Shown: positions 15,713 to 56,392 of the stretch, piece after piece
How positions within the stretch are numbered: the stretch's first letter is position 1
Layout: the number at the start of each line of letters is the position of its first letter
Assembly: GCF_006345805.1 (NCBI RefSeq)
Contig: NW_021832866.1
Coordinates: 28,098-92,097, forward strand
Length of the DNA: 64,000 nt
Source: Octopus sinensis
Lineage: Eukaryota
Direction of reading: 5' to 3'
Position numbers and translations under genes: made by a program
Notes under the pieces: generated by a model
Database searches by the model: none
Seen by the model: only the letters and a program-made list of their open reading frames with translations
What the model was told of the DNA's origin: nothing

Positions 15713-18700
15713 TTTATGAATAAAGCTGCAAAGACATCACAAAAACTGTTACTCAAAGTTTCACGTTGCTGTTCGTCGGACAGTTTTGGTTTTTCTCAAC
15801 CAAAACTATTCAATGAACAACAGAGTGATACTCTGAGTAAATGTTTTTGTGATGTCTTTGCAACTTTATTCATAAAGCAAATTACTCTACCTCCAGTATT
15901 CGAGTACTATTTTCCCACCTTGGTTCACATTCATGTGCTTACTCTGGTATATATATATATATATATAATTAGAAAAACCACTATTGCCACTATTATGCAA
16001 TTCAAATAATGATAGGCATAATCCAAATCATAAATAAAAAATAAAATATATTTTAAAACATATAACTAGATCACAAGAAGTACAAAAATGAACAAACAAT
16101 ATATAATAAGTAAAAATACTACGTACGTTTCATGGCTATAATTTTAAATTGCATAATAGTGGTTTTTCTCTAATTTGTATATATTTATATATATCATATA
16201 TTTATATTGTGAAATTTGATTTAATACTAAATTGAATTTTTCCCTGTAAGTTTGGAGTTATACTCCCTAATATTATATATATATATGCAAGCATACAAAC
16301 ATATACATGTTTGTGTATGTATTTTAGTTTAATCAATTGTAGTAAATTTATAAATATTACCTGCCCAACTACTACTACCACTATTCTTCATTGTATTATT
16401 TTGATTTCTTTTTCTCCAAATTTAGAATCTTTAAAAATTTCTAGAAATGCTGAGAATTACAATTTTCTGAAGACCAGTGGCTGTGTCCGGGTTGGAACCA
16501 TCGATGATAAGGAGAACTTCTATGCTGTCAAGGTAGGTGCTGTAGCATGGTCCATCTTTTCTAAGAGCATGTGCTTCTTTATCATTGCTGAATGCATTGT
16601 CGCTATTAATCGACCTGTGAAGGTGACAAGCTGGCAGAATCGTTAACATACCAGATTGGATGCTTAGCAGTATTTCATCTATTGTCACATTCTGAGTTCA
16701 AATTCTGCTGAGGTTGACTTTACTTTTCATCCTTTTGGGGTTGATAAAATAAAAACCAGTTGAGCACTGGGGTTGATTTAATCAAGTTACACCCTGCCCT
16801 GAAATTGCTGGTCTTATGCCAAAATTCGAAACCATTATTAATCAACTTGTGTTATCTCTCTCTTTTTTTCTTTAGCTCTCTTGCTCTCCACTCCTTAATT
16901 TTCAACATTACACCTGTAGTCTGTATATCTATTATCCATAGACACAGGCATTCCTTCTTTCTACCTGTAATTACACCTGTAGTCTGTATGTCTATTATCC
17001 ATAGACACAGGCATTCCTTCTTTCTACCTGTAATTACACCCCACCCATGTAATCTTTCTAAATCTTATTTCTAAACATTTCAGAATGGAATGGAAGTAAT
17101 TGGTTTCCAAATCCAGGAAATCTTTGCCGTGTTTCAATTAGTTTCCAGTGTTTTAAAGTTGGGAAATTTAGAGTTTCACCATCGAAGTAACGTAGATGGC
17201 ACCAATGGTTGTGTCTTAGTGAATGAGTATGGTAAGTACTGCCCTTCATTCGAGATTATTACACCAAAACCTCACACTCATAAGCATCACTCACACTCAT
17301 AATCATCACTCACACTCACATCATGTTTGGGCTGCTTTTATTTTCTGCTTGGGACAACATGTTTAATGTTCTGTTGGTGGTGCAATAAACCACACTCAGC
17401 CCACACTCTAGGTTAAACAGAAAGACAAAGCTGGTTGGGTTTGCTCTGTTTTTCTATTATGGATCTGGTACAAAAGTGAGAGATTTGGTACAGTTGTGAG
17501 ACAGATATGGTACAGATACAAAATAGATCAAACACAGATGAGATACATCTGGTACAGATGTGACTGGTCTGGTATGTATGTGTGACAGATCTGGTACAGA
17601 TATGAGAGATTTGGTACAGTTGTGAGACAGATATGGTACAGGTACAAAATAGATCAAACACAGATGAGATACATCTGGTACAGATGTGACTGGTCTGGTA
17701 TGTATGTGTGACAGATCTGGTACAGATATGAGAGAAATCTAATGCAGATGTAAGACAAATCTGGTGCAGATGTGGGACAGATGTAAGACAAATATTCATT
17801 TGATAAATAGTTTCTGTTGTGGATAAGATTCCAAAATGATGTGTCACAAAGTTGTCTGGTGAGCATCCATAAATTCACATAAAATGATGATGATGATGAT
17901 GATCAATGAATGGCTTTTATATCATTATCATTTAATGTCTATTTTCCATGCTGGCATGGGTTGGACAGATTGACAGGGCGGCGAGCTGGCAGAATCGTTA
18001 GCAGGCCGGGCGAAATGCTTAGCGGTATTTCACCTGTTGCAACGTTGTGAGTTCAAATTCCGCCGAGGTCAACTTTGCCTTTCATCCTTTCGGGGACGAT
18101 AAATTAAGTACCAGTTACGCACTGGGGTCAATGTAATCAACTTAATACCTATGTCTGTCCTTGTTTGTCCCCTCTATGTTTAGCCCCTTGTGGGTAATAA
18201 AGAAATAGATTGACAGGATTTATTGAGCAGCAGGGCTGCACCAAATTCCTTTTAGCTTTGGCATTGTTTAACAAAGCTGGCCTTTTGAAATACAGGCACA
18301 ACTCATTTTTATCAGCTGAGTGGACTGGGGCAACATGAAATAAAGTCCCAAGGTCACAACACACTGTCCGGTATTGAACTCATGACCTTAAGATCATTAG
18401 CCAAATATCCTAACCACTTGGTCACATGCTTTCACACCTCAATGTAAACTCAGTAGGTCTGACCGGCTATTATATACCCCTATGCAAAGACCATAGAATT
18501 GATGCAATCTTATATATACCCCTACAGAAAATCTTCTCCATTTGCTTTCCCCCTAAGTCGTTTATAAATAATAAATAAAATAAATGCGCCCTTTTTAAAG
18601 CCTAGGCAGGCTCATGGGCCCGGTTTCCCGGTTTCAATGGTGTATATGTTCCCCAGCTGGACGGGATGCCAGTCCATTGCAGTGTTACTCATTTTTGCCA

Positions 18701-21258
18701 GCTGAGTGGACTGGAGCAACGTGAAATGAAGTGTTTTGCTCAAGAACACAATGCACCACCCAGTCCAGGAATCGAAACCACAATCTTTCAATCATGATGC
18801 TGACACTCTAACCACTAAGCCAAGCGCCTCCAAAGTGCCACTATATTACCTTGCCACATCCCCAATTTTGTCATTATCTTACAATTTGTGTACCTCCATA
18901 TCTGAGATGCCCCAGGGTGGTAGCCTTTACCTACTCCTGTTCTGTAATGTTCTAATGAGTTGTGTGTCACTTGCAGAGGCCCAGGAGATTGCCGAGTTGT
19001 TAGGTTGCTCCTATGAAGAGTTGAAGACTGCCTTAACCCAACGCACTGTCGAGGCCCGTGGAGAGAAGTTAAAAACTGACTTAAGTACAGCTGATGTAAG
19101 TATTTCTTGAATATTACAACCACCTGCACATCAACCACAACCACCACTACCTCCTATACTATAACTACTACTATTACTTATGACACCACTAACACTTACA
19201 TTACTACTACTACTGCTGATCCTTCAACTACAACATTACCACTGTTATTATCACCACCACCTACACTATCCCTACCACCCCATCACTAACTCTGCCACCA
19301 CCACTTATATTTCCACTAATTACCTACCATTTATATGGTAGGTAATAGTATACCATTATACTATTACCAACACCACTGCTATCATCAACATTACTACTCC
19401 TGCGCTATTACTGCAATCATCGTTTCTTAGACCATTATTGCTACTCTGCCCATCACTATAATTACAACCTCATACAACTGTTACTACTACTACTACTACT
19501 ACAACTAGCACCGTTACTACTACATATACCACTACTACAGTGACACCATCATCACTGTTTATGAACACAACCACCAATTTACACCTCCCGCTACTACCAT
19601 GACCACATTCACCATCACAACTATTATCTTCATCAGCATCATCATCACTACTACTATATTCAACCGACTCCTACCACACTCACCATCACCACCATAATCA
19701 TCACTATAATCACCATCACTGCCATTACAACCATTGCCGTCACCACCATCCTCACAGTCATCCACCACCACCACCACCACTAACCCATGTTACCTTTGTC
19801 TCTTCCCTTACAGTCCGCCTATGCCAGAGATGCTTTATCAAAAGCCATTTATAGTCGAATGTTTTCATGGTTGGTGCAGAGAATCAACGATGGTATAAGG
19901 GTAAGTTGTCTTTGAGAATTTCAATGTTGTTATTTTCCATCTCACCATTTTGGGAATAATTCCACAAATGGTGAGATTGTCTCCATGTGGGAATGAAAGA
20001 TAGATTTTGAAGAAATCGGTGATGGACAGCACGAGTAATGATGAGAATAAACTTCAAGAGCCTAGTACAGGTGGCAGTCTCGTACAGATCTATAAGACAG
20101 ATCTGGTTCAAATGAAAGACAGATCTAGTGCAGATGTGAGACAGATCTAGTGCAGATGTGAGACAGATATAGTGTAGATGTGAGATATTTGGTACAGTTG
20201 TGAGACAGATATGGTACAGATACAAAATAGATCAAACACAGATGTGACTGGTCTGGAATGTATGTGTGACAGATCTGGTACAGATATGAGAGAAATCTAA
20301 TGCAGATGTAAGATAAATCTGGTGCAGATGTGGGGACAGATGTAAGACAAAAGGCTTTAAAAAAGATATGTGAGCACTGGAGTTGATTTGTTTGATGAAA
20401 AATTCTTCAAGGTGTTGCCCCAGCATGGCCATAGTCTAATGATTGAAACAATAAATGACAAAAGACAGCAGTCAACACCCGGATACATTAGCATATGAAC
20501 AAGTATCACATGACCCAGAGAGGTAATTCTAATGCAGTCTGTGTCCAAATTAAATCTGCCCCACAAAGGATCCTCCATATACAAACACACACACTGATGG
20601 AGAGATATAGGCGTAGGAGTGGCTGTGTGGTAAGTAGCTTGCTTACGAACCACATGGTTCCGGGTTCAGTCCCACTGCGTGGCACCTTGGGCAAGTGTCT
20701 CCTACAATAGTCTTGAGCTGGCCAAAGCATGGTGAGTGGATTTGGTAGACGGAAACTGAAAGAAGTCTATCATATATGTCAGTGTGTGTCTTTATGTTTC
20801 TGTTTTTTTTTTCCCCACGACCACTTGACAACGAGTGTTGGTTTGTTTACATTCCTATAAGTTGGTGGTTCAACATAAGAGACCGATAGAATAAGCACCA
20901 GGTTTTTATTTTAAAAAATAAGTACTGGGGTCAACTTGTTTGACTAAAATCCTTCGAGGCAGTGCCCCAGCTTGGCCATAGTGCAATGTCTAAAACGAAT
21001 AAAAATAACAAATTCCTCCTGATGCAGGCGAGCATAGACATGTGGACATTAAAACACTGATGGTGATTATATATATTTATATATATTTATACTTATAAAA
21101 TTCAAATTTACAGAAAACAAAAGATAAAGCCGGATGAGGGAATAACAAGTAGGTGTATTAGTTTTGATGCTTAGGTAGAATGGGAAAGTCTTTGACATTT
21201 TGAGCCTATGCTCTTTGACAGAAAGGGATGAGAGGAAACAAAGTAGAGAGAGAATGAA

Positions 21259-21402: not shown

Positions 21403-21435
<33 letters not shown>

Positions 21436-22256
21436 GGGGAGAGTTTACGAAAAAAACAAAAGACGAAGACAGGTGGTGTACAAAACAAACAGATGTATTA
21501 GTATAACACTCAGGAATAGAAAAAGTCTTTTACATTTTGAGCCTACGCTCTTCTACATAAAAGGAGACAGAATAAACAAGGAGAGAAAAAAAGTGTGTGT
21601 AGTGGCTAACGATCTATCATGGCGACTATATGTAATCATCATTTAATGTGTGTGTGTCTTTTTTTCCTCTCCTTGTTTTTTCTTTGTTCCTTTCTGTAGA
21701 AGAGCATAGGCTCGAAACATAAAAGACTTTTTCTATTCCTTAGCATTATACTAATACATCTCTTTGTTTTGTACACCACCTGTCTTCGTCTTTTGTTTTT
21801 TTTTCGTAAACTCTCCCTATATATATATATGTACTCATACACATACACATATAGACACAGGCATACTCATAAAGATACACACAGATGCAGTGGTGATACT
21901 GGTTGTATCACAAATCTGTCATGTTTTAAGAACACAGGGTAAAAAACTAAAAAATAATTGATTATTAGAAAGATACACAAGTTTTTGAATTTAGGCATTT
22001 TTCTTAATCAAAAATATGAGCAAATGTTAGATAGAATTCTGGATAATATGAAATATTTCTATAGAAGTCTCTCTCTATCTCTCTCACCACACACACACAC
22101 ACACACACACACACAAATATTGTGTGTACATATATATATATATCTGTATATGAAGGTATATATGACCTTTACTTGAACTTATGAAAAAATTCCTCTGAGA
22201 ATCCATCAGGTTATCTAACCAAAAAAAGTTCTCTTTCATTCTTTCTTTGTGTGTGT

Positions 22257-30408: not shown

Positions 30409-33400
30409 ATATATTTGTGTGTCTGTGTTTGTCCCCACCCCCAACATTGCTTGACAACCGATGCTGATGTGTTTACTTCCCAGTAACTTAGCAGTTCGGC
30501 AAAAGAGACCGATAGAATAAGTACCAGGCTTACAAAGAATAAGTCCTGGGGTCAATTTGCTCAACTAAAGGCGGTGCTCCAGCATGGCCGCAGTCAAATG
30601 ACTGGAACAAGTATGAGAGTACAAGAGAACTAAAGTCTCCTGGATCCACTCATAGTCTCTTCCTTTTCTAAAACAGACCATAATTTAACTCTTTAGCATT
30701 CAGGTTATTCTGTCAAATGTAATGCTAATTTATTCACGTTGTTTTGAATTAATCATGTATCTTCATGAATTCAATGATTTCGTTGTGTATTTTTAAAATG
30801 ACATTGTTGGGTAAGTGTGAAAGGCCAGATCATAAGAATATTTGGGTCGGATATGGCTAGTTTAAATGTTAAAGGATTAAATATGCTTCACTGAATATCA
30901 ACTAAATTTTTCTGAGGAAAATTTGGTAGGAAATCTCTGTGGAAGGCCAATAGAAGGACCATTCCTGTATTTGTAGATTTAATCAGTTGACCACTGGCTG
31001 TCTTTAAAATGGAGTCCATTATATTAGAACCACTGAAACCAGGTTGCTGACCACAAACTGATCTCCTCATTCTGCTAACCGTTTTTGGAGACCTTGGCAA
31101 ATATTTCTTCCTGCTCCTTACATTATGAGTTCAAAAGAATCAACTTTGCCTGTCATATTTTTGGGGGTTTATGAAATAAGTACCACTCAGGTGAGGATCA
31201 TGTTTCTTTCCCTCAAAAAATTGCTGGTCTTGTGCCAAAAAATTAGAAATCACTATTATTATTACTATTATTATTATTATTAGGGTGGCAAGCTGGCACA
31301 ATTGTTATCATGCCAGGCAAAATGCTTAGTGGCATTTTGTTCGTCTTTACATTCTGAGTACAAATTCTGCCAAAGTCAACTTGGCCTTTCATTCTTTTGG
31401 GGTTGATAAAGTAAGTACCAGTTGTGCAGTGAAGCTGATGTGATTGACTTACCCATGTACCCAATATTTCTAGCTTTATGCCAAAATTTGGAACCATTAT
31501 TATTATTATTATTACTTTAAACATGTTTTTTATACCTGCTTCTCTGTATCTCCTTTTGCTTTCCGTTCCATCAGGTAACCTACAGGGTTGAAGGGTTTGT
31601 TGATAAAAACAACGACCTTTTGTTCCGTGATTTGTCTCAAGCCATGTACAGATGTAAACATCCTTTACTAAAAGACTTATTCCCAGAAGGTAAGCCACAT
31701 CTTTTTTTGAACATCTTTCATCCTCGCATCTATTGATTCTTCCTCGTTTTGTAATTGTTGTTGTTGCTATGCAACTTAAGTCTGTGATGTTGCAAGAAAA
31801 GTAAAGAACTGTTGTTTGCTTACAAACCTCAACAGTTTCAGTTCTGAGGTTGGTGGGTTTGCCATTTATCCTTCAGGCCAGTGGTTCCCAACCTTTTCAC
31901 TACCAATGACACCTTTTATGTAAATGAGTTTTTTCCCATGGACCCCTGGGCATAAAGAAATAAGAATCATTTGAATATCAGAAAAAGTACTTTGAAGAAT
32001 TTCTTCAGGCTCTTTATATTTTGTTTTCAAATGTCACCGAGGTCAACGTTGCCTTGCATCTTTTGTGATACATTGAATGCCAGTTATATACTGGGAATAA
32101 TTCAACGAACTACACCTTATCTCTACAAATAACCTTGTTACAATATGTAACAGTTTTAAAACTGTTTTAACTTAATTTCGTAGATATTATATTTAAATCA
32201 TCGTCATTCATTTCTATTCCATGCTGGCATGGATCAAATAGTTTGACAGGATCCAGCAAGTGAGGAGACTCTATCAAGATCTAGTGACTGTTTTGCCAAG
32301 GTTTCAACAGCTGGGTGCTCTTCCTATCACCAACCACTTCACAGAATGTTGTGGGTGATTTTGGCTGTCACCAACTCTAGTGAGGCCGCAAAGCAACTCA
32401 CAAGTAAAGAAGACCCCTTGACCGAGAAGAGTATGGTGTCAAAGGAAATGACTTATGCCAGGTGTGGAGAGATACTACTATGACAGAGGAAATGGAACAA
32501 CTGTCTTACTGTTGAGGAGATACATTACATGGTTACCCTCAGCTGGAAAAGGGAAGAAAAAGATGATAGTGATGAGATATTCACCTGGTGGTTAGCGCAG
32601 TGGACCTTGCGGTTGAAGGATCACAGGTTGGAATCTCAGACCGTGTATCTTATCCAACATTCTTTCTATGAGCTGAAAGGGCCCGTACCCTCCCTTGCAG
32701 CCGTTAATTTAATGGTGGTGCATCAGCATGGCCGCAGCTCTGAGCTGAAACTGCAGAAAAAAAAATACATATACATTCACACATACATATTCTGTTCTTT
32801 CTCATTGATAGGAAATCCCGCTCGCCCATCTTTAAAACGTCCAGCCACTGCCGGCTCGCAATTCAAAGTAAGTATGTTTAATTACATCTGTATACAAGTA
32901 TGTGGACATGAGAAAATAAGATGACTAACGAATAAATGGTTATCTTATCATCATTTATTCCTTAGTCATCTTTTTTTCTTATTACTGCTCTATACTCAAG
33001 TAATGTTTCGTTCTGAAGCATGCGTATATTGAGTTCTATGCCAAGTTATTAGTCTCACAATGCCTAAATTAAATATGTATATGTATATATATACAAAATT
33101 AGAAAATGGAGAAATATATCTAAATCAATCATCAACCATCTGATAATACCCAATCAATACTTTATTAAACCATTACACAATAGCAATGATATTATACATT
33201 AATACAGTACAAATATAACAAGACATAGAAATAGAAATACATTTACATTGTAGCTGACAGCTGTTTCGGCCATGAAGACAGATATATATATATATAATTA
33301 AATAATAATATTAGGGAGTATGGCTCCAAACTTACAGGGAAAAATTAGATTTAGGATTAAATCAAATTTCACAGTATAAATATATAAAATATGAATTAGA

Positions 33401-33904
33401 GATAAAACCACTATTATGCAACTCAGTGATAGACATAAACCAATACATAAATAACAAATAATATAAATATAATTAATATAATATATAAAATATAATAAAT
33501 AATATATAATATAAAAAAAAAATAAAGATTTTATTTTAAATTTAAAAAATTTAAATTTTATATATATATATTATATTAATTATATTTATATTATTTGTTA
33601 TTTATGTATTGGTTTATGTCTATCACTGAGTTGTCTAATAGTGGTTTTATCTCTAATTCATATGTTATATATATATAATATTAGGGAGTAAATCCAAACT
33701 TACAGGGAAAAATTAGATTTTGGATTAAATCTAATTTTACATTATAAATATAAATTAAATTAGAGATAAAACCACTATTAGGGAAATCAAACAGTGAAAA
33801 ACATAAACCAAAACATAGAAATAAAATTAATTAATAAAATATACAAAATATATAAAATTCAAAATTTAAAATTATTTAAATTTAAAAATTTAAAATTATT
33901 AATT

Positions 33905-49960: not shown

Positions 49961-52900
49961 AACCTGTATCTGTTATATACTTTTGTGGTGTGGTAACCCT
50001 TTCTTTCAGTGAGTCTGTTGTTAACCCTGCCAATATTCAGAAATAGCTTTCTATTGTCCCATCTGTTAACCCAATGTGTGTTGCTCTTACATGTGTCAAA
50101 CCTATATATATTCATTATTCTGTGTTAACCCATCCGTACATGTGATGACCTTATGTGATTGCCAATGTTGTAATACCATTTATAGTATTAATACCTATTT
50201 CTTTACTACCCACAAGGGGCTAAACACAGAGGGGACAAACAAGGACAGACAAATGGATTAAGTCAATTACATCGATCCCAGTGCGTAATTGGTACTTAAT
50301 TTATAGACCCCGAAAGGATGAAAGGCAAAGTCGACCTCGGCGGAATTTGAACTCAGAATGTAATGGCAGACGAAATATGGCGTTTCGCCCAGCCTGCTAA
50401 TGTTTCTGCCTGCTCACCACCTTATAGTATTAATACCATTGAACAAGAGGTGAGGTTCTGGCAAGCCACAGGCACAAACCAGGTTCAGCTTTAGGTTACA
50501 ATAAATTCACTCATATCAGTGAATGTCTTGTTTCAAGGCATGAGAACCACTCAATCTCCTGTTCCTTTTGCTTTTTAACTATGGCTTTGTGCCTTGATAA
50601 GGGGTCATCATCATCATCGTTTAACGTCCGCTTTCCATGCTAGCATGGATTGGACAATTTTGACTGAGGGCTGGCAAACCAGATGGCTACACCAGGCTCC
50701 AATCTTGATTTGGCAGAGTTTCTACAGCTGGATGCCCTTCCTAATGCCAACCACTCCAAGAGTGTAGTGGGTGCCTTTTACGTGCCAGTGGCACGGGGTC
50801 CAGTCAGGCGGTACTGGCAATGACCTCGCTCAAATCTTTTTACAAATGCCACCAGCACAGGTGCCAGTAAGGCAACGTTGGTAACAATCACGCTCAAATG
50901 GTGCCCTTTTATGGGTATTTCCTGTTATTGTTAGAAAACAAACCAATATGGTATGGCGGCAGAGATTGTAGAGCATCAATGAAAAATACCTTAAAAGCAT
51001 TCAGATATGTCCTACATACTGTGTTTCAAATCCTGATGTTGCCTTTTACCTTTCCAGCTCATAGAATTAACACCTGTATTACAAAGATATAACCTCAAAT
51101 AAACATTCTTCTTCTCTGCCACCATTCGTCAGTGCCAAATTTCAAAGAACAAGAATTACTTTTGTAGAATATATATTTCTCATTAGAAGCACCATTTGTT
51201 TTGAGAAAGTTTACCTTTATTCTTTGATCAATTTCTTGGTCTAAATCAGGCATGGGTAACCTTTTACATGAAGCATACCACATGTGAGATACAGTTTATC
51301 ATCAGGTGGGCCACATACTAAAAGGGAAAGAGCATTATTGTGGGTGCTGGTGTCATAAAAAGCACTAGTGTTGGTGTCACATAAAAAGTACTGGTGATGG
51401 TGCCACGTAAAAAGCAATGGTGCTGGTGCCACACATGCAGCACTGGTGATGGTGCCATGTTAAAAGCACCCAGCTCACACCGTAAAGTGGTTGGCACTTG
51501 GAAGAGCATCTGACCATCAAAACTAAACCAAAACAGACTGTGGAACCTGGTGCAGCCTTACCAGTTCCTGTCAGGCCATCCACCCCATGCCAGCATGGAA
51601 AACAGATATTACCAGACAACTATGTTCTTCTTCTCTTCTTTAATCCCTAGCTGGCAACTAGAGGGGGAGGCTGTCCTCTCAACCAACACTCCAGAGCCCA
51701 TTTTATTTCAAAGCATCAATCTAATATGTCCAGTGTGTACATCCTTCTGACTTTTGTTGTTTTTCCTGTTTTTATTTTTGACTTGTTAGTATAAAACACG
51801 CAATGGCAGAAAGACCACTCTCCAGACAGTTTTCTATTCATTACTAAGTGATATTTACACATTTGATTCCCAGTATGTATCTTTATAAATATAAACGGCA
51901 AAATATCAGTCTGTCTGTGTGTGTGCACGTGTCCTTTATACAAATCCACAATTTTTCAGTTAGAGCACTCGCACTTTCTATGGTCATTCAAAACTGTGCA
52001 AGGGTGGTCGTGCACATCTTTACATTTCCCCAGTCACACCGCAAAGCCATTAAAAAATCATTAGAAGTGACTTTTTTGTGAATTTTCTATTCAAAACCCA
52101 ATCAAAATGCTCGAAATTTGATACGCCAGTTGAATGCCAGCTAGCTGTATGTGATTGGTTGCCAGGTCATAGTGCTAGTAGAATATATTTTTCAAAGATG
52201 TTCTCTCGTAAACCTGTATCCTCAGTACCATCTATGTGAACTATTCTTCTGTTTCAAGATATAACTTCTTCAGAATATATATTTTCACAAAATAGATCAT
52301 GTTTATTTTTGTTTCTCTGTAAATTTCCAACTTTTTATACTTTTCAGAAATTACTGGATTAATTCTGTTGGTACCACTTATGTAAATGAATTGATTAAAT
52401 GCTAATTGCTTTTTGCAGGAAAATGGTGGAATTCTGAGCAAGAAAGGTGATTTCATCTTCTGTGGTGAACATATCTTTGAAATTATCACCAAGGCCTACA
52501 TTTTGATACAGAATATTTCGGGCAAACCTCCTGATGTTCACATCTCAAACCAGTAAGGTTCACACACTCTTATCCTTCATTTTTTACTTCCTTATTTTCC
52601 TCTTCCTTGAAGCTGGTTAGATGTTGACATTACAGACAGTTGATCTGCACTTTCAAATGTGATATGGGATATAACAAACTTTTATCTGAAAAAATAGGTA
52701 AGGTTTGGTGACGGGAAGAGCATCTCACAGTAAAATCCTGTGTAACTCATGCTAGCATTGAAAAGTGGATGTAAATGTATGAACAAACAATAATATTTAT
52801 ACATGAAAAGCTAGCTCAGAGTCTGAAGATGAGTTTCATGCCGGAACACTTATCAAATTTTTAGATTTGAAATTTCATCAAAATCTAAAGAGGAAAAATT

Positions 52901-55900
52901 TCTTTTGAAATAAGGCATTAAAAATATTACTTGATAACAAATGTTTTAATTTACTCACTGCTAAGGAGATATTTTGTTTTCAAGAGAATTTTTTCTCTCT
53001 TTTTTTTTTCTTTGACCAGGATATCAAATGTCCTTTTGCTAGTCACAATCCATCCATTCTTCCTTTGATTGTGCCCTTCCTTTCCATTTGGGTCTAAATT
53101 TTTGACAATGTCCTCTTTCTATCCTTTTGAGATTTCCTTCAAGTGTTCTTTCCTGATCTCTTGAATAACATTTGACAACTGCATCAGTCAACTGGTCAGT
53201 CAGCCTTGCAACATCATCATCACCGTTTAACGTCCATTTTCCATGCTAGCACGGGTTGGACGGTTCGACTGGGGTCTGGGAAGCCAGGAGGCTGCACCAG
53301 ACTCCAATCTGATCTGGCAGAGTTTCTGCAGCTGGATGCCCTTCCTAACGCTAACCACTTCATGAGTGTAGTGGGTGCTTTTTACGTGCCACCGGCACAG
53401 GTGGCAGGGGAGGCTGGTGGCAGGGGAGGCTGGCAGCAGCCATGAGATCTTTTTTAAAGGCTCTGACATGAAACTGTAGGCCCCTTGAGTTACTCATTAC
53501 TTTCTTGGCTATAAATAAATAGGTGTCTTTTAATGCCTGCCTTCTCTGCTAATCTGATGGGTCAGAGGACTGGGTGGTAATCCACTGTTTACTTTTGGAG
53601 TTCTGTCTCTCCCATTTGTACAACCAATCTGGATGTCCTGGGAGGAGGCTGCAAATGATCGCCAATGCTGGATACAAGTACAACACAAGAGGTGGAGGGA
53701 AGGAGTGAGGGGAAGAGAAGCTGGAACTTTTCACCAAAGAAAAACATGCTGAAAGGAAGATGGAATCAGTAGTGCCTGTGGAGAGTTTCTTCCAATGCAG
53801 TCGTGGCATGCAAGACTGCAGCTCCCATTTGGGCCTCTACAGCCACAGCAAATACTGCATCCTCCTCTGCAGCTGACACAAAATTCTCCAGGCATAGATT
53901 CATGGTCTTTCGAGTCTGGTTAATGCCCATCCATCCATTGATCTGTCTATCTATCTATCTATCTACCTACCTACCTACATATATCATCATCATCGTTTAA
54001 CGTCCGTTTTCCGCGCTAGCACGGGTTGGACGGTTCGGCTGGGGTCTGGGAAGCCAGGGGCCGCTCCAGGCTCCAGTCTGATCTGGCAGAGTTTCTACGG
54101 CTGGATGCCCTTCCTAACGCCAACCACTCAGTGAGTGGAGTGGGTGCTTTTTACGTGCCACCTGCACAGGGGCCGGGGGGTCCGGCATCGGTCGCGATCG
54201 GTTTGAGCTTTTAACGTGCCAGCGGCATGGGGGCAACGGGATCCGGGGTACTTTGGGGGGTGGGGAAGGTTGGGGTGGGGAAGGTTGGGGGGTAAGGAGG
54301 AACGATGGCAGGAAGGGTTGGTGCAGGTTCGTAAGAAATAAAAACGTAGGATATTACGAGGCGTGGAGGGGACTAGAAGGAGATAGTAGGATTGAGGCAG
54401 TATCAGATTCAAAACAGGAGGAAGCGTAAGTTCAGTGGGCAGTTGATGAGCTGTGATGCTAGCAGCTTGTCTTTTCACAGTGAAAGCATATGAGGAGAAG
54501 GGGTAGGAAGGGGTGGTGGGGGAGGAGGAGGGAGTATCCGGTGTAGATGGTGAGAACAGTGTTCACCGGTATTGGTGGTGGGGGTGGGAGGGCGGGCGCA
54601 CGGCGCACTGGGAGAAGATGAGATTTTGGCGGCAGAAAGAAAGACAGGATTTGAGATGGAATGCTTTGCGATCGTGTGCATAAGTTTCTATGAGTGGAAG
54701 TTGGGAAAAGATGGGTTACAGAATTAAGCGACAGAAAGAAAGACCAGATTTGAGACGAGATGATTTTACGGTCATGTGAATAAGTTTTTGTGAGTGAAAG
54801 TTTATATGCTTCAGCTAGCATTTGAGACGAAAGACAACGATAACGCTAATATATGGGGAAACAATAATAATAAGAAGGCTTGATGGTGATGATGATACTT
54901 GCAAAAACAATGAAAAGAGGAACAGGACTTAGCTGATATTTTTCATCCTGCGTATTGGCTAAGCCTGTGGAAGCGAGTGAAGGTGAGATATATACAGAGA
55001 GAGAGAGAGACAGTGATAACAGAGGGAGAAACCGACACCACATAGCGAGAGAGAGAGCGAGAGAGAGAGAGAGAGAGATAGTGATAACAGAGGGACAAAA
55101 CGACACGGCGCATTATAATAATAATTATTATTATTTGAGGCAATATTATTCCTAACCTACAGGGAAAAATTCAATTTAGAAATACTAAATCAAATTTCAC
55201 AAAATATAATATATATGTAAAAATTAGAAAAAAACCCACCTTTTATCAATTCAAAATGAACAATTAAATTACACCATCTAGGAAATTACATATAATAGAA
55301 ATATTAAAAATAAAATAACCATAATAATAAAAATGTATGTATTTGGTATATATATATATGACCTCATGTGTACCGTTGGCGATTTTTTCCTCTGTCTTTC
55401 CTTCTCGGGATCTTTCCTTCTCCTATGTTTCCGATGAAGAGCTCCGCTCAAAACGTTAAACCCTCCTTCTTCCCTTCTTTCCTGAGCGTCCAATAATACT
55501 ATATTTGTGTTTTCTTGTTTGGATTATATATATATTAATAGCAATGGTAAGACAACAAAAGAATGAATGAGACCTCGATATTATGTAAATAGAGAAATTT
55601 ATCTGTAATATAATATGTGACAATTATTTGGTTGCCATAATAAGACTCCGAGTTTCGGATGTTGGGGCGGAAAACTTCTCCGGCATCTCGTCAGTTATCG
55701 AGGCAATCAAAAAAGCTATCAGTTTGGATAATATATATATATATATATTAATACTATAAATTTCGGAATATATATATATATAGTTAATCCAAACATGAAA
55801 ACACAAAGAGAAAGCACAACAACGCGAGGACGTGGAACAAGTATAGTGTTATTGGATGCTCAAGAAAGGAAAGAAAGAAGGAGGACTTAATGTTTCGAGG

Positions 55901-56000
55901 AGAGCTCTTTGTCAGAAGTATAGGAAAATGAAAGATCCAAGGAAGGGAAGATGGAAGAAAAAAAAAATCGCCAACGATACACACGCAGTTACATTTTGAA

Positions 56001-56031
<31 letters not shown>

Positions 56032-56392
56032 GTGCGTGTGTGCGTGTATGTATGTATGCATGCATGAATGAATTAATGAATGACTGAATGCATGAATGAA
56101 TGATTGAATATCTTACATTTTCTGTTTTCATCTTGATATTTGTGCAAATTGAGAGTAATGATAAACTCAGAGTATTGATGATATGAAAACTCACTCTGAA
56201 AAAATCAAAAAAATCATATTTGTATTTTTTAAATAATAATTTTTTTATTCATTTTTTTTCCATTCCAGATTCTCAGCAGATCTAAATGGTAAAAAGGTTG
56301 ATGTTTGCTTCCGACGAGTACCACAGGAAGTGTTACCCGGGGTCTTAAAAATCACGCGAAAGGGAAATCAATTTGATGTACTCCAGCATTGA
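7164..56392 (+). CDS. myo1b: Unconventional myosin-I, MYO1A/B (myosin-Ib-like) clade; 26 coding exons, 5'-partial
   Basis: Spliced translation gives [110 protein letters not shown] motifs..TH1 tail..stop. All introns are GT-AG with compatible phases. [19 protein letters not shown] and KRPxTAGSQFK match the MYO1A/B clade rather than MYO1C/D (from recalled sequences). TEDS position is Glu. Confidence 0.95.
8174..8348. mobile_element. fold-back MITE with ~45-bp TIRs
   Basis: ggttatactcgatattgctccaatctggccaaccccaaggaaaaat ... atttttccttggggctggccagattggagcaatctcgagtagaacc. Confidence 0.75.
9240..9303 (+). CDS. myo1b: myosin-I exon ([21 protein letters not shown])
   Basis: tttcag|...|gtaaga, 64 nt. 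Confidence 0.95.
9789..10100 (+). mobile_element. tRNA-derived SINE family 1 (head GGAGGCGCAATGGCCCAGTGGTTAGGGCAGCGGACT); copies 12395-12700(-), 23514-23900(+), 57453-57754(-)
   Basis: A-box/B-box tRNA-like head followed by a conserved body in four copies. Confidence 0.85.
11241..11720 (-). mobile_element. CR1-clade LINE ORF2 C-terminus and 3' end
   Basis: [32 protein letters not shown] = CR1 C-terminal signature. Confidence 0.88.
11826..11839 (+). CDS. myo1b: myosin-I 14-nt microexon ((Y)LLEK)
   Basis: ctag|ATTTACTTGAAAAG|gtatgt; required to complete the invariant NYLLEKSRV and the frame. Confidence 0.92.
15364..15448 (+). CDS. myo1b: myosin-I exon ([21 protein letters not shown])
   Basis: ttctag|...|gtaagt, 85 nt. 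Confidence 0.95.
16426..16532 (+). CDS. myo1b: myosin-I exon ([25 protein letters not shown])
   Basis: tttag|...|gtaggt, 107 nt. Confidence 0.93.
16907..17040. repeat. tandem duplication of a ~63-bp unit just upstream of an acceptor
   Basis: attacacctgtagtctgtat.tctattatccatagacacaggcattccttctttctacctgta x2. Confidence 0.9.
17084..17231 (+). CDS. myo1b: myosin-I exon ([17 protein letters not shown])
   Basis: tttcag|...|gtaagt, 148 nt. Confidence 0.94.
17460..17795. repeat. ~22-bp minisatellite (agatctggtacagatgtgagac) with ~126-bp higher-order repeat; second copy 20080-20350
   Basis: Direct inspection. Confidence 0.85.
17978..18210 (+). mobile_element. tRNA-derived SINE family 2 with Nin/Deu-like core (GCCTTTCATCCTTTCGGGGTCGATAAATTAAGTACCAG); copies ~16625, 22892-23119, 27237, 28610-28930, 31285, 45460-46170 (tandem), 50200-50420(-)
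   Basis: Multiple homologous copies; tail ttagccccttgtgggtaataaagaaat. Confidence 0.85.
18977..19095 (+). CDS. myo1b: myosin-I exon ([21 protein letters not shown]; TEDS site E)
   Basis: ttgcag|...|gtaagt, 119 nt. Confidence 0.94.
19115..19790. repeat. degenerate (ACT/ACC/ATC)n trinucleotide tract filling the intron; similar tract 26560-26830
   Basis: Direct inspection. Confidence 0.9.
19814..19900 (+). CDS. myo1b: myosin-I exon ([25 protein letters not shown])
   Basis: ttacag|...|gtaagt, 87 nt. Confidence 0.95.
25001..25066 (+). CDS. myo1b: myosin-I exon (switch II: [14 protein letters not shown])
   Basis: tttcag|...|gtgagt, 66 nt. Confidence 0.95.
26308..26412 (+). CDS. myo1b: myosin-I exon (relay: [35 protein letters not shown])
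   Basis: tcacag|...|gtaaga, 105 nt. Confidence 0.96.
27666..27728 (+). CDS. myo1b: myosin-I exon ([21 protein letters not shown])
   Basis: tttcag|...|gtaggt, 63 nt. Confidence 0.95.
29635..29669 (+). ncRNA. minimal (Penelope-type) hammerhead-like core, degenerate; homologues 55427-55461(+), 55886-55918(-)
   Basis: guuu aCGACGA a gagc ucc gcuc GAAA cguUA aac; three-copy consensus C(C/U)GA(C/U)GA-A-GAGC-nnn-GCUC-GAAACGUUA. Confidence 0.55.
29802..29996 (+). CDS. myo1b: myosin-I exon ([23 protein letters not shown])
   Basis: tttcag|...|gtaagt, 195 nt. Confidence 0.96.
30212..30630 (+). mobile_element. tRNA-derived SINE family 3 (CORE-like CCTTGGGCAAGT, internal (TA)/(TG) microsatellite); copies 2470-2775(-), 4250-4670, 4960-5310, 20610-21000, 22705-23360(-), 28095-28490, 39908-40290, 61115-61515(-), 63460-63760(-)
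   Basis: Full-length copy with GCAGGAGTGGCTGTGTGGTAAG head and GAAACAAGTAAAAGAGTA-type tail; many homologues. Confidence 0.85.
31575..31689 (+). CDS. myo1b: myosin-I exon ([25 protein letters not shown])
   Basis: catcag|...|gtaagc, 115 nt. Confidence 0.95.
32812..32867 (+). CDS. myo1b: myosin-I exon (loop 2: [18 protein letters not shown])
   Basis: gatag|...|gtaagt, 56 nt. Confidence 0.94.
34324..34389 (+). CDS. myo1b: myosin-I exon ([22 protein letters not shown])
   Basis: ctccag|...|gtacgt, 66 nt. Confidence 0.95.
35324..35391 (+). CDS. myo1b: myosin-I exon ([23 protein letters not shown])
   Basis: ttccag|...|gtaagt, 68 nt. Confidence 0.95.
35860..36076 (+). CDS. myo1b: myosin-I exon (SH1/converter: [29 protein letters not shown])
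   Basis: ttacag|...|gtaaaa, 217 nt. Confidence 0.96.
36131..37060 (+). mobile_element. Tc1/mariner deletion derivative (N-terminal HTH only) hosting a nested MITE
   Basis: TIR halves aaaaagtctctccgcagt / actgcggatagactttttgaacaccctgta; peptide [32 protein letters not shown]. Confidence 0.8.
36652..36968. mobile_element. CpG-rich MITE, ~85-bp TIRs, 5-bp TSD CTAAT
   Basis: ctaat|ACGGTACTACTTGAGAACAGTGGTCCC...GGGACCACTGTTCTCAAGTAGTACCGT|ctaat. Confidence 0.88.
38027..38176 (+). CDS. myo1b: myosin-I exon (IQ1-IQ2: [17 protein letters not shown])
   Basis: ttgtag|...|gtaagt, 150 nt. Confidence 0.94.
38302..38690 (+). mobile_element. non-autonomous Helitron
   Basis: A|TCTTTATATATAAAA...cccgggcgatactgCTAG|T, no TSD; empty site catctagaaaa/ttacatataatag seen in the paralog at 55274-55300. 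Confidence 0.82.
39298..39366 (+). CDS. myo1b: myosin-I exon (single IQ: [23 protein letters not shown])
   Basis: ctccag|...|gtaacc, 69 nt, phase 0-0, IQxxxRGxx motif. Confidence 0.92.
40662..40823 (+). CDS. myo1b: myosin-I exon (IQ4-IQ5-like: [15 protein letters not shown]..)
   Basis: tgttag|...|gtaagt, 162 nt. Confidence 0.92.
41650..41895 (+). mobile_element. degenerate RTE LINE ORF C-terminus (different subfamily)
   Basis: [30 protein letters not shown]. Confidence 0.6.
42719..42850 (+). CDS. myo1b: myosin-I exon (post-IQ: [29 protein letters not shown])
   Basis: ttccag|...|gtgtgt (weak donor), 132 nt; LPSxSP..WP motif typical of MYO1B. Confidence 0.9.
43272..43817 (-). mobile_element. 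CR1-clade LINE RT C-terminal fragment
   Basis: [51 protein letters not shown]. Confidence 0.88.
43918..44024 (+). CDS. myo1b: myosin-I exon (TH1 start: [27 protein letters not shown])
   Basis: tttcag|...|gtaagt, 107 nt. Confidence 0.93.
44395..45419 (+). mobile_element. 5'-truncated RTE-clade LINE: ORF end + ~730-nt 3'UTR with tandem array + (GAT)n tail; 3'UTR-only copies at 5575, 12925, 13425, 14630, 37480, 40945, 47975, 50605, 51340, 53210, 53985
   Basis: [34 protein letters not shown] (RTE C-terminus) runs directly into the ubiquitous GTTGGCGTTAGGAAGGGCATCCAG..CGTTAAACGATGATGAT repeat. Confidence 0.88.
46214..46590 (+). mobile_element. probable LINE 3' end (L1/Tx1-like) sharing its tail with SINE family 2
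   Basis: Short frame [17 protein letters not shown]..; ends gttagcccttgtggccaataaacgaa(tta)n, matching the SINE-2 tail. Confidence 0.5.
46601..46736 (+). CDS. myo1b: myosin-I exon (TH1/PH: [25 protein letters not shown])
   Basis: (att)n-tag|...|gtgagt, 136 nt; PFxGDYL and KxNR motifs. Confidence 0.93.
48367..48519 (+). CDS. myo1b: myosin-I exon (TH1: [33 protein letters not shown])
   Basis: ttccag|...|gtatga, 153 nt. Confidence 0.93.
49888..49905 (+). CDS. candidate alternative 18-nt microexon (PTDVYQ) in TH1
   Basis: Long pyrimidine tract + tatag|CCTACCGATGTTTATCAG|gtatta; phase 0-0 matches the flanking exons. Confidence 0.45.
51880..52178 (+). mobile_element. non-autonomous Helitron
   Basis: A|TCTTTATAAATATAAA..gtctgtctgtgtgtg..gccaggtcatagtgCTAG|T. 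Confidence 0.72.
52419..52552 (+). CDS. myo1b: myosin-I exon (TH1: [25 protein letters not shown])
   Basis: ttgcag|...|gtaagg, 134 nt; KGDFxF motif. Confidence 0.93.
55638..55699 (-). ncRNA. type I hammerhead ribozyme motif (near-complete)
   Basis: Minus strand: gataa CUGACGA gaug(ccggagaaguuuuccgccccaa)caucc GAAA cucggaGUC uuauu; stems I, II, III can pair; one extra C at the base of stem II. Confidence 0.7.
56269..56392 (+). CDS. myo1b: myosin-I last coding exon ([27 protein letters not shown])
   Basis: ttccag| acceptor, frame continues to TGA at 56390-56392; typical TH1 C-terminus. Confidence 0.92.

What the first reader, a model, noticed from the sequence alone, without database searches (positions are those of the whole stretch)
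55535..55735. Near-complete hammerhead ribozyme inside a (TA)n-flanked non-coding element in the last intron
Seen: the minus strand at 55699-55638 reads gataa-CUGACGA-gaug[ccggagaaguuuuccg cccc aa]caucc-GAAA-cucgga-GUC-uuauu. All catalytic-core nucleotides (CUGANGA, GAAA, GUC triplet) are present. Stem I (GAUAA/UUAUU), stem II (GAUG/CAUC extended by a CGGAGAA/UUUUCCG hairpin) and a short stem III (ACU-CGG-AGU) can form. Predicted cleavage is between 55644 and 55643. The ~200-nt unit sits between (TA)n runs and between two inverted copies of another hammerhead-bearing repeat. Known: hammerheads mark Penelope-like element termini and non-autonomous retrozymes. Inference: this is a cephalopod ribozyme-bearing, microsatellite-targeting retroelement, possibly undescribed.
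Basis: partly seen in the sequence, partly recalled or inferred. Interest (0 to 1): 0.78.

Follow-up and report, generated by a model that had tools for sequence, protein, structure and literature searches.

The report
Hammerhead end of a Penelope-like retrotransposon
This is the cut-off end of a common jumping gene, carrying a real hammerhead-shaped RNA that likely cuts itself only in pairs; this one copy lies backwards in a myosin intron and likely does nothing for the host.

Summary
The hammerhead is real: the only descriptor hit in the window, one of at least 1,516 exact-core copies in G000. It is not a free-standing non-coding element. It is the 186-nt 3' end (pseudo-LTR) of a Hydra-clade Penelope-like retrotransposon: the same unit lies downstream of the GIY-YIG end in 21 of 30 loci and just upstream of the ORF start in 12 of 25. 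The ORF has the Hydra motifs RWK, DKT and CxCx5C, and 60 of 72 3' ends abut (TA)n. Hydra elements with hammerheads and TA targets are published, one from an octopus; this is a second, far more abundant family. The 'extra C' is ancestral; stems covary only between subfamilies; folding favours a dimer. This copy has two stem II lesions, a probable 19-bp target duplication, and is antisense to a class I myosin gene. Cleavage is untested, and RNA reads show no cut ends. The best lead lies outside the window: a sister subfamily with a weakened core (U4C) has 2,830 pattern matches against 1,886 canonical ones.

The parts
55536..55721 (-). 5'-truncated copy (186 nt) of the 3' terminal repeat (pseudo-LTR) of a Hydra-clade Penelope-like element; 3' end at 55536
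   Evidence: 91-95% identical to the 39 other best copies scored; 3' ends coincide; linked to RT and GIY-YIG sequence in longer copies
55632..55706 (-). Type I hammerhead motif with extended stem I (5+5 bp around an internal loop), long stem II and near-palindromic stem III
55688..55694 (-). Core box CUGACGA (C3-A9), intact
55657..55687 (-). Stem II: G10.1-C11.1, one bulged C, then a long hairpin; this copy has two substitutions (55677, 55663) that break family pairs
55644..55656 (-). GAAA box, stem III ACUC-G-GAGU and C17; predicted cut between 55644 and 55643
   Evidence: same stem III as two published Hydra hammerheads; cleavage not tested
55649..55659 (-). Competing 5-bp hairpin (UCCGA/UCGGA) predicted to hide the GAAA box in the monomer
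   Evidence: in the minimum-energy fold of this copy; can form in 38 of 52 copies
55536..55599 (-). About 60-65 nt 'tail' present on forward copies and missing from inverted partner copies
   Evidence: forward copies end at query 195-197, inverted partners near 125-136
55517..55535 (+). Probable target-site duplication, left copy (19 bp; end of the flanking repeat plus TA run)
   Evidence: one mismatch to the right copy; seen in 1 of 45 copies tested
55722..55740 (+). Probable target-site duplication, right copy
55356..55526 (+). Copy of a different TA-associated repeat with a minimal hammerhead; core mutated here (C at position 4, A at position 12)
55785..55995 (-). Second, diverged copy of that repeat, tail-to-tail with the first; core mutated (A at position 8)
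52553..56268 (+). Host intron: likely the last coding intron of a class I myosin gene; the hammerhead is antisense to it
   Evidence: Pfam Myosin_head, IQ and Myosin_TH1 on plus-strand exons; donor, acceptor and phase read from sequence

Best explanation
The unit is a 5'-truncated copy of the terminal repeat of an abundant Penelope-like retrotransposon of the Hydra clade, inserted at a TA run, and its hammerhead likely served the parent element by cutting RNA as a dimer, while this copy is likely an inert leftover. Shown: copy number, shared 3' end, TA targeting, linkage to an RT plus GIY-YIG ORF on both sides, Hydra motifs, inverted partner copies, an ancestral core. Inferred: the element's RNA was reverse-transcribed from a nick in (TA)n by its own protein and stopped after about 186 nt, leaving a 19-bp duplication. 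Predicted: in tandem transcripts (repeat-ORF-repeat) two hammerheads pair through ACUCGGAGU and cut out a unit-length RNA, while a single copy is held off by a 1-nt stem III loop and a competing hairpin (about 0.6). Inferred: this copy cannot cut the myosin pre-mRNA, which carries the other strand.
For: 2,914 candidates in G000, 40 scored; 1,516 exact-core matches, control 0. Unit downstream of the endonuclease end on the same strand in 21 of 30 loci, one being the query's own locus; unit ending just before the ORF start in 12 of 25 loci, two of which look like one duplicated insertion. L126 (the L011 locus, 92% identical to the window copy) runs straight into the ORF start with the RWK motif. 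RVT_1 E 0.001 and GIY-YIG E 0.11 on ORF fragments. RWK, DKT, CxCx5C, CxxC and CxH seen in translations, as defined in PMC8557442 section 11. (TA)3 within 20 nt of 60 of 72 3' ends against 10.9% of random 20-mers in the same loci. Inverted partial copy upstream in 14 of 30 loci. Between subfamilies one stem II pair runs C-G, U-G, U-A (17, 12, 17 of 52) and distal stem I is kept in a shifted register (99 of 110 and 132 of 150 cells). The dimer fold is a median 13.9 kcal/mol below two active monomers in the 45 of 52 copies that could be constrained.
Against: No cleavage was measured. Three RNA runs of a coded organism B show family reads on both strands with no pile-up of ends and no joint at the cut site (about 6% of each run read; only 1 of 997 reads was 99% alike to this copy). 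No covariation above shuffles in the first alignment of 56 copies (325 of 500 shuffles as high); RNAalifold returned no pairs on it. The signal rests on one to three events, on rows I chose and on a structure extended after seeing them; the number of pairs with double changes was not above shuffles (110 of 500). Even the dimer fold lies a median 6.5 kcal/mol per strand above the dimer's minimum-energy fold. Both Pfam hits are below the curated cut-offs. No intact full-length ORF was seen, and no RT tree with reference clades was built. The duplication is seen in only 1 of 45 copies.
Confidence: 0.9

Rival explanations
1. The unit is a non-autonomous non-LTR retrozyme: a short hammerhead repeat that is cut to monomers, circularised and spread with help from a Penelope-like protein.
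For: Short, hammerhead-bearing and dispersed; a 2026 preprint argues animal retrozymes derive from PLE terminal repeats (10.64898/2026.07.22.740005).
Against: Retrozymes are head-to-tail arrays (PMC7229834). 0 of 30 loci have a second direct copy within 1.5 kb. 5' ends are ragged and run on into a GT-rich 3' region and the endonuclease. No joint at the cut site in reads.
Confidence: 0.04
2. The element is as described, but its hammerhead is a passenger: little or no cleavage is needed for the element to spread.
For: A subfamily with C at core position 4 has 2,830 pattern matches against 1,886 with U, forms one branch (12 rows, support 100/99) and has the shortest end branches. U4C lowers activity in vitro (PMC3088659). 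In an anole PLE, hammerhead mutants did not affect insertion in vitro and no reads ended at the cut site (PMC11167929). No cut ends here.
Against: All other core positions and all three stems are kept across subfamilies. The same passage says U4C keeps enough activity for viroid infectivity. A cruder measure did not show the U4C group to be younger (0.062 against 0.060 over 50 nt).
Confidence: 0.3
3. This copy has been co-opted by the host, for example to process the myosin pre-mRNA or an antisense RNA.
For: All core positions are intact, and it lies in an intron.
Against: It is antisense to the host gene. 33 of 56 copies also keep an intact core. Core positions change about as often as the tail in inserted copies (11 of 330 against 112 of 2,711). 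This copy has two stem II lesions and no partner hammerhead of its family nearby.
Confidence: 0.03
4. The hammerhead match is chance in AT-rich repeat DNA.
For: No Rfam hit; not the minimum-energy fold.
Against: 2 of 100 shuffles give a strict hit; same position, strand and stem III as published Hydra hammerheads; stems kept across subfamilies.
Confidence: 0.01

Closest known systems
Hydra clade of Penelope-like elements (Craig et al. 2021, PMC8557442)
   Same: RT followed by a C-terminal GIY-YIG domain; RWK, DKT, CxCx5C, CxxC and CxH motifs; type I hammerhead near the 3' end; (TA)n targets; stem III ACUC-G-GAGU identical to Hydra-2_aMil and Penelope-16_HM.
   Different: Longer stem II (about 11 pairs with a bulge and mismatches, against 3-7 in the listed Hydra motifs), a GT-rich 3' region of roughly 0.8-1 kb that brings the element to about 3 kb, thousands of copies, and a large U4C subfamily.
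Hydra-1_Obim (same paper, supplement)
   Same: Same clade, octopus host, TA targets; the ORF start is alike (28 of the first 42 residues by eye); its hammerhead motif is also in G000 (15 exact matches).
   Different: Different hammerhead sequence; 33-43% amino-acid identity over thumb, linker and endonuclease to the G000 copies carrying that motif; listed with 'no pLTR', whereas this family has upstream repeats in 12 of 25 loci.
Minimal PLE hammerheads (Cervera and de la Pena 2014, PMC4209133)
   Same: Type I, in PLE terminal repeats, long helix II, palindromic helix III, mostly single copies from truncated elements, opposite-strand pairs 100-700 bp apart, low activity that needs dimers.
   Different: Their unpaired base sits 5' of stem II; here it is on the 3' side, after G10.1-C11.1. 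The flanking repeat, not this unit, fits their minimal form.
Non-LTR retrozymes (PMC7229834; bioRxiv 10.64898/2026.07.22.740005)
   Same: Type I hammerhead in a short animal repeat, linked to PLEs.
   Different: No tandem arrays, no fixed unit length, own coding element, no circle junction seen.

Membership tests
Type I hammerhead ribozyme | Core CUGANGA, GAAA and NUH with G10.1-C11.1 and A15.1-U16.1 | tested here: met
Type I hammerhead ribozyme | Three stems can form, open end in stem I | tested here: met
   91-92% of cells paired against 23-60% for slid controls; not the minimum-energy fold
Type I hammerhead ribozyme | Compensatory changes in stems | tested here: inconclusive
   none above shuffles; present between subfamilies, but few events
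Type I hammerhead ribozyme | Match to an Rfam hammerhead model | tested here: not met
   a library match is a convenience test and does not define the ribozyme
Type I hammerhead ribozyme | Mg2+-dependent self-cleavage at the predicted site | not testable with these tools
   no cut ends in fragmented RNA libraries, which is weak either way
Penelope-like element | Single ORF with RT and GIY-YIG endonuclease | tested here: met
   colinear in broken copies; Pfam hits weak; no intact ORF seen
Penelope-like element | Partial tandems (pseudo-LTR), inverted 5' copies and a tail | tested here: met
   21 of 30 downstream, 12 of 25 upstream, 14 of 30 inverted; tail
Hydra clade | RWK and DKT motifs; endonuclease C-terminal | tested here: met
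Hydra clade | CxCx5C linker; CxxC and CxH around the conserved E and N | tested here: met
   CxH is CxY in part of the copies
Hydra clade | (TA)n insertion preference and hammerhead near the 3' end | tested here: met
   60 of 72; cut site 107 nt from the 3' end
Hydra clade | Placement inside the clade on an RT tree | not tested
   reference proteins were seen only in a paper supplement and were not used in any computation
Hydra-1_Obim family | Same hammerhead and near-identical ORF | tested here: not met
Non-LTR retrozyme | Head-to-tail arrays of a hammerhead unit | tested here: not met
   0 of 30 loci
Non-LTR retrozyme | Expressed as circles joined at the cut site | tested here: inconclusive
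   no such joint in 997 reads; the library type is unsuited

The most novel reading that the evidence does not exclude
This family is a natural experiment on why Penelope-like elements carry hammerheads: its youngest and largest lineage swapped a catalytic-core base (U4C), kept a monomer-blocking hairpin through a paired change (C-G to U-A), and outspread the canonical lineages, which would mean that selection tuned the ribozyme down rather than up.
Probability: 0.2. Interest if true: 0.6.

Novelty: new member of a known kind. Interest (0 to 1): 0.3.

Why it matters
The locus itself is ordinary: one of thousands of truncated copies, backwards in an intron. The family has two modest uses. It adds a high-copy Hydra element with clear pseudo-LTRs, where the published octopus member had none. 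And it offers graded natural hammerhead variants (three canonical subfamilies and a U4C one) for the open question, stated in PMC8557442, of whether these ribozymes help the element or merely ride on it.

Tried and rejected
Rfam scans: no hammerhead hit. RNAalifold on 56 copies: no pairs returned. Covariation in that alignment: not above shuffles; 5 of 61 copies were left out for indels or truncation. For one search I kept 27 of the 30 pattern loci (two with indels and one near-duplicate dropped) and added 25 earlier copies. First target-duplication search missed even the window copy through my own cut-off; redone. No RNA holder listed by the run search. RNA reads: no end pile-ups; the 'goes back 203' joint joins TA runs, not the cut site. 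No read support for the host exons was obtained, so the intron limits rest on sequence alone. The group test on the tree failed through a labelling slip; the tree was read from row names, midpoint-rooted only. No coding partner found for the flanking repeat in 15 loci. The two flanking copies as one inverted-repeat element: rejected, since they are tail-to-tail, 143 of 216 columns alike with a 34-nt gap, and 0 of 14 other loci of that repeat hold this unit. Earlier findings of the scan: none returned. Lunse et al. (RNA Biol) is not held and was seen only as a citation.

Full report
Observation. A type I hammerhead descriptor finds it as the only hit in the window; 6 of 100 block shuffles gave a loose hit and 2 of 100 a strict one. 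Rfam has no hammerhead match here, and the motif is not the minimum-energy fold of the 70-nt piece (z -0.25) though the 133-nt piece folds better than shuffles (z -2.16).

Copy number and ends. A DNA search of G000 gave 2,914 candidates; the 40 scored include the window copy and 39 others at 91-95% identity. A pattern with both core boxes has 1,516 exact matches and 0 for the reversed control. Copies share one 3' end and have ragged 5' ends. 60 of 72 full 3' ends have (TA)3 within 20 nt, against 10.9% of random 20-mers in the same loci. 14 of 30 loci have an inverted partial copy upstream, which lacks the last 60 or so bases, and 0 of 30 have a second direct copy. These are the inverted copies and tails described for Penelope-like elements (PMC8557442 section 6).

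The parent element. Longer copies run 5' through a GT-rich region into the end of a coding frame. Searching with that end gave 30 loci: 24 hold the unit, 21 downstream on the same strand, one being the query's own locus. Searching with the ORF's N-terminal part gave 25 loci: in 12 the unit ends on the same strand just before the ORF start; two of these share flanks and look like one duplicated insertion. In L126, 92% identical to the window copy, the unit runs straight into the start and the RWK motif. Broken copies show RT, a CxCx5C linker and a GIY-YIG-type C-terminus in order; Pfam gives RVT_1 at E 0.001 and GIY-YIG at E 0.11, both under the curated cut-offs. RWK, DKT, CxCx5C, CxxC, CxH, a 3' hammerhead and TA targets are the features given for the Hydra clade (PMC8557442 section 11). 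No intact ORF was seen and no RT tree was built.

Known or new. The paper's supplement lists Hydra-1_Obim from an octopus, with a different hammerhead and 'no pLTR'. That motif has 15 exact matches in G000, and those loci are 33-43% identical in protein to this family. So this is a second, much larger Hydra family. Six literature searches found no description of it; Repbase and Dfam could not be searched, and the repeat library of PMC13282606 was not read (main-text passages only), so it may already have a library name.

The ribozyme. The 'extra C' is in 60 of 61 copies and can bulge after G10.1-C11.1; position 7 and position 17 vary freely. In 56 mostly close copies, 91% of cells pair but covariation does not exceed shuffles, as expected for copies that decay after insertion: core positions differ from the majority in 11 of 330 cells, the tail in 112 of 2,711, and chosen stem positions in 11 of 597. 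With more subfamilies (52 rows), one stem II pair runs C-G, U-G, U-A and the score beats all 500 shuffles, though the count of pairs with double changes does not (110 of 500). Distal stem I is kept in a shifted register. These are few events on rows I chose. Stem III has a one-base loop and matches two published Hydra motifs exactly. The active monomer lies a median 10 kcal/mol above the minimum-energy fold, partly because of a competing hairpin possible in 38 of 52 copies; the double hammerhead is a median 13.9 kcal/mol below two active monomers but still 6.5 per strand above the best dimer fold. Published PLE hammerheads of this type cleave weakly and as dimers (PMC4209133 parts 1-2 of 4; PMC6765202 passages). 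Cleavage here is therefore predicted, not shown.

This copy. A 19-bp sequence with 8 non-TA bases is repeated, with one mismatch, at both junctions; of 45 copies tested only this one shows such a match at its junction. It suggests insertion by staggered nicks into the end of the left flanking repeat, after that repeat arrived. The two flanking repeats belong to another family (4,574 pattern matches), are tail-to-tail, differ from each other and have mutated cores: a pile-up at one TA run. The host is a class I myosin on the plus strand; the intron is 52553-56268 by splice sites and phase. The hammerhead is antisense, so the pre-mRNA does not carry it.

Expression. Three RNA runs of coded organism B gave 388, 349 and 260 family reads in 11.5-12.9 million records each, on both strands, with no end pile-up and no joint at the cut site; only one read was 99% alike to this copy. 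This says nothing about the locus and little about cleavage. An anole PLE study also found no reads at the cut site and no need for cleavage in vitro (PMC11167929 passages).

The lead. Several ORF-start loci carry C at core position 4. That variant has 2,830 pattern matches against 1,886 for the same pattern with U (the window's own subfamily, with C at position 7, is outside both patterns). On a tree of 46 copies the 12 U4C rows form one branch (100/99) with end branches of 0-0.045, while the window's subfamily is star-like at 0.017-0.079 apart from one near-identical pair; a cruder measure showed no age difference. Most U4C copies also change both sides of one pair in the competing hairpin: of the first 100 of 4,628 matches, 62 are U-A, 21 C-G, 13 C-A and 4 U-G, counted by eye. 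Both changes are CpG-type transitions and arose once, so chance is a fair reading. U4C lowers activity in vitro yet permits viroid infectivity (PMC3088659 passage). Other papers seen: PMC7229834 passages; bioRxiv 10.64898/2026.07.22.740005 part 1 of 5, supplements closed.

Verdict. A real hammerhead motif at the end of a new, high-copy family of a known clade; the locus is ordinary. Interest 0.3.

Noticed in passing
L146-L157; L127, L130, L135, L139: Large subfamily of the same element with C at hammerhead position 4, mostly U at 11.1 and A in loop III; 2,830 pattern matches; shortest end branches on a small tree.
   Followed up: partly
window 55356-55526 (+) and 55785-55995 (-); L102-L115: About 210-nt TA-flanked repeat with a minimal hammerhead, 4,574 core-pattern matches; most copies start near the same base, which may mean a short non-autonomous element; no coding partner found in 15 loci.
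   Followed up: partly
window 21694 onward (+): A third degenerate minimal-hammerhead repeat copy, near the inverted pair 21407-21592 / 21660-21845.
   Followed up: no
window 55749-55769: Short stub between TA runs resembling the end of yet another TA-flanked repeat (similar words in L038, L042, L056).
   Followed up: partly
window about 35774-56392 (+): Exons of a class I myosin: motor end, two IQ motifs, TH1 domain, last exon from 56269.
   Followed up: partly
L141-L145: Copies of the published Hydra-1_Obim-type element in G000; L141 and L144 continue past the hammerhead into sequence like the published 5' start, which hints at a pseudo-LTR for that family too.
   Followed up: no
L019, L062, L068: Copies with internal inversions and rearranged ORF pieces, suggesting template jumps during insertion.
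   Followed up: no
window 33375-33677: 113-nt inverted repeat, 96% complementary, 77 nt apart.
   Followed up: no
window 17462-17782 and 20093-20331: Two arrays of a 22-nt minisatellite with 42-126 nt higher-order periods.
   Followed up: no
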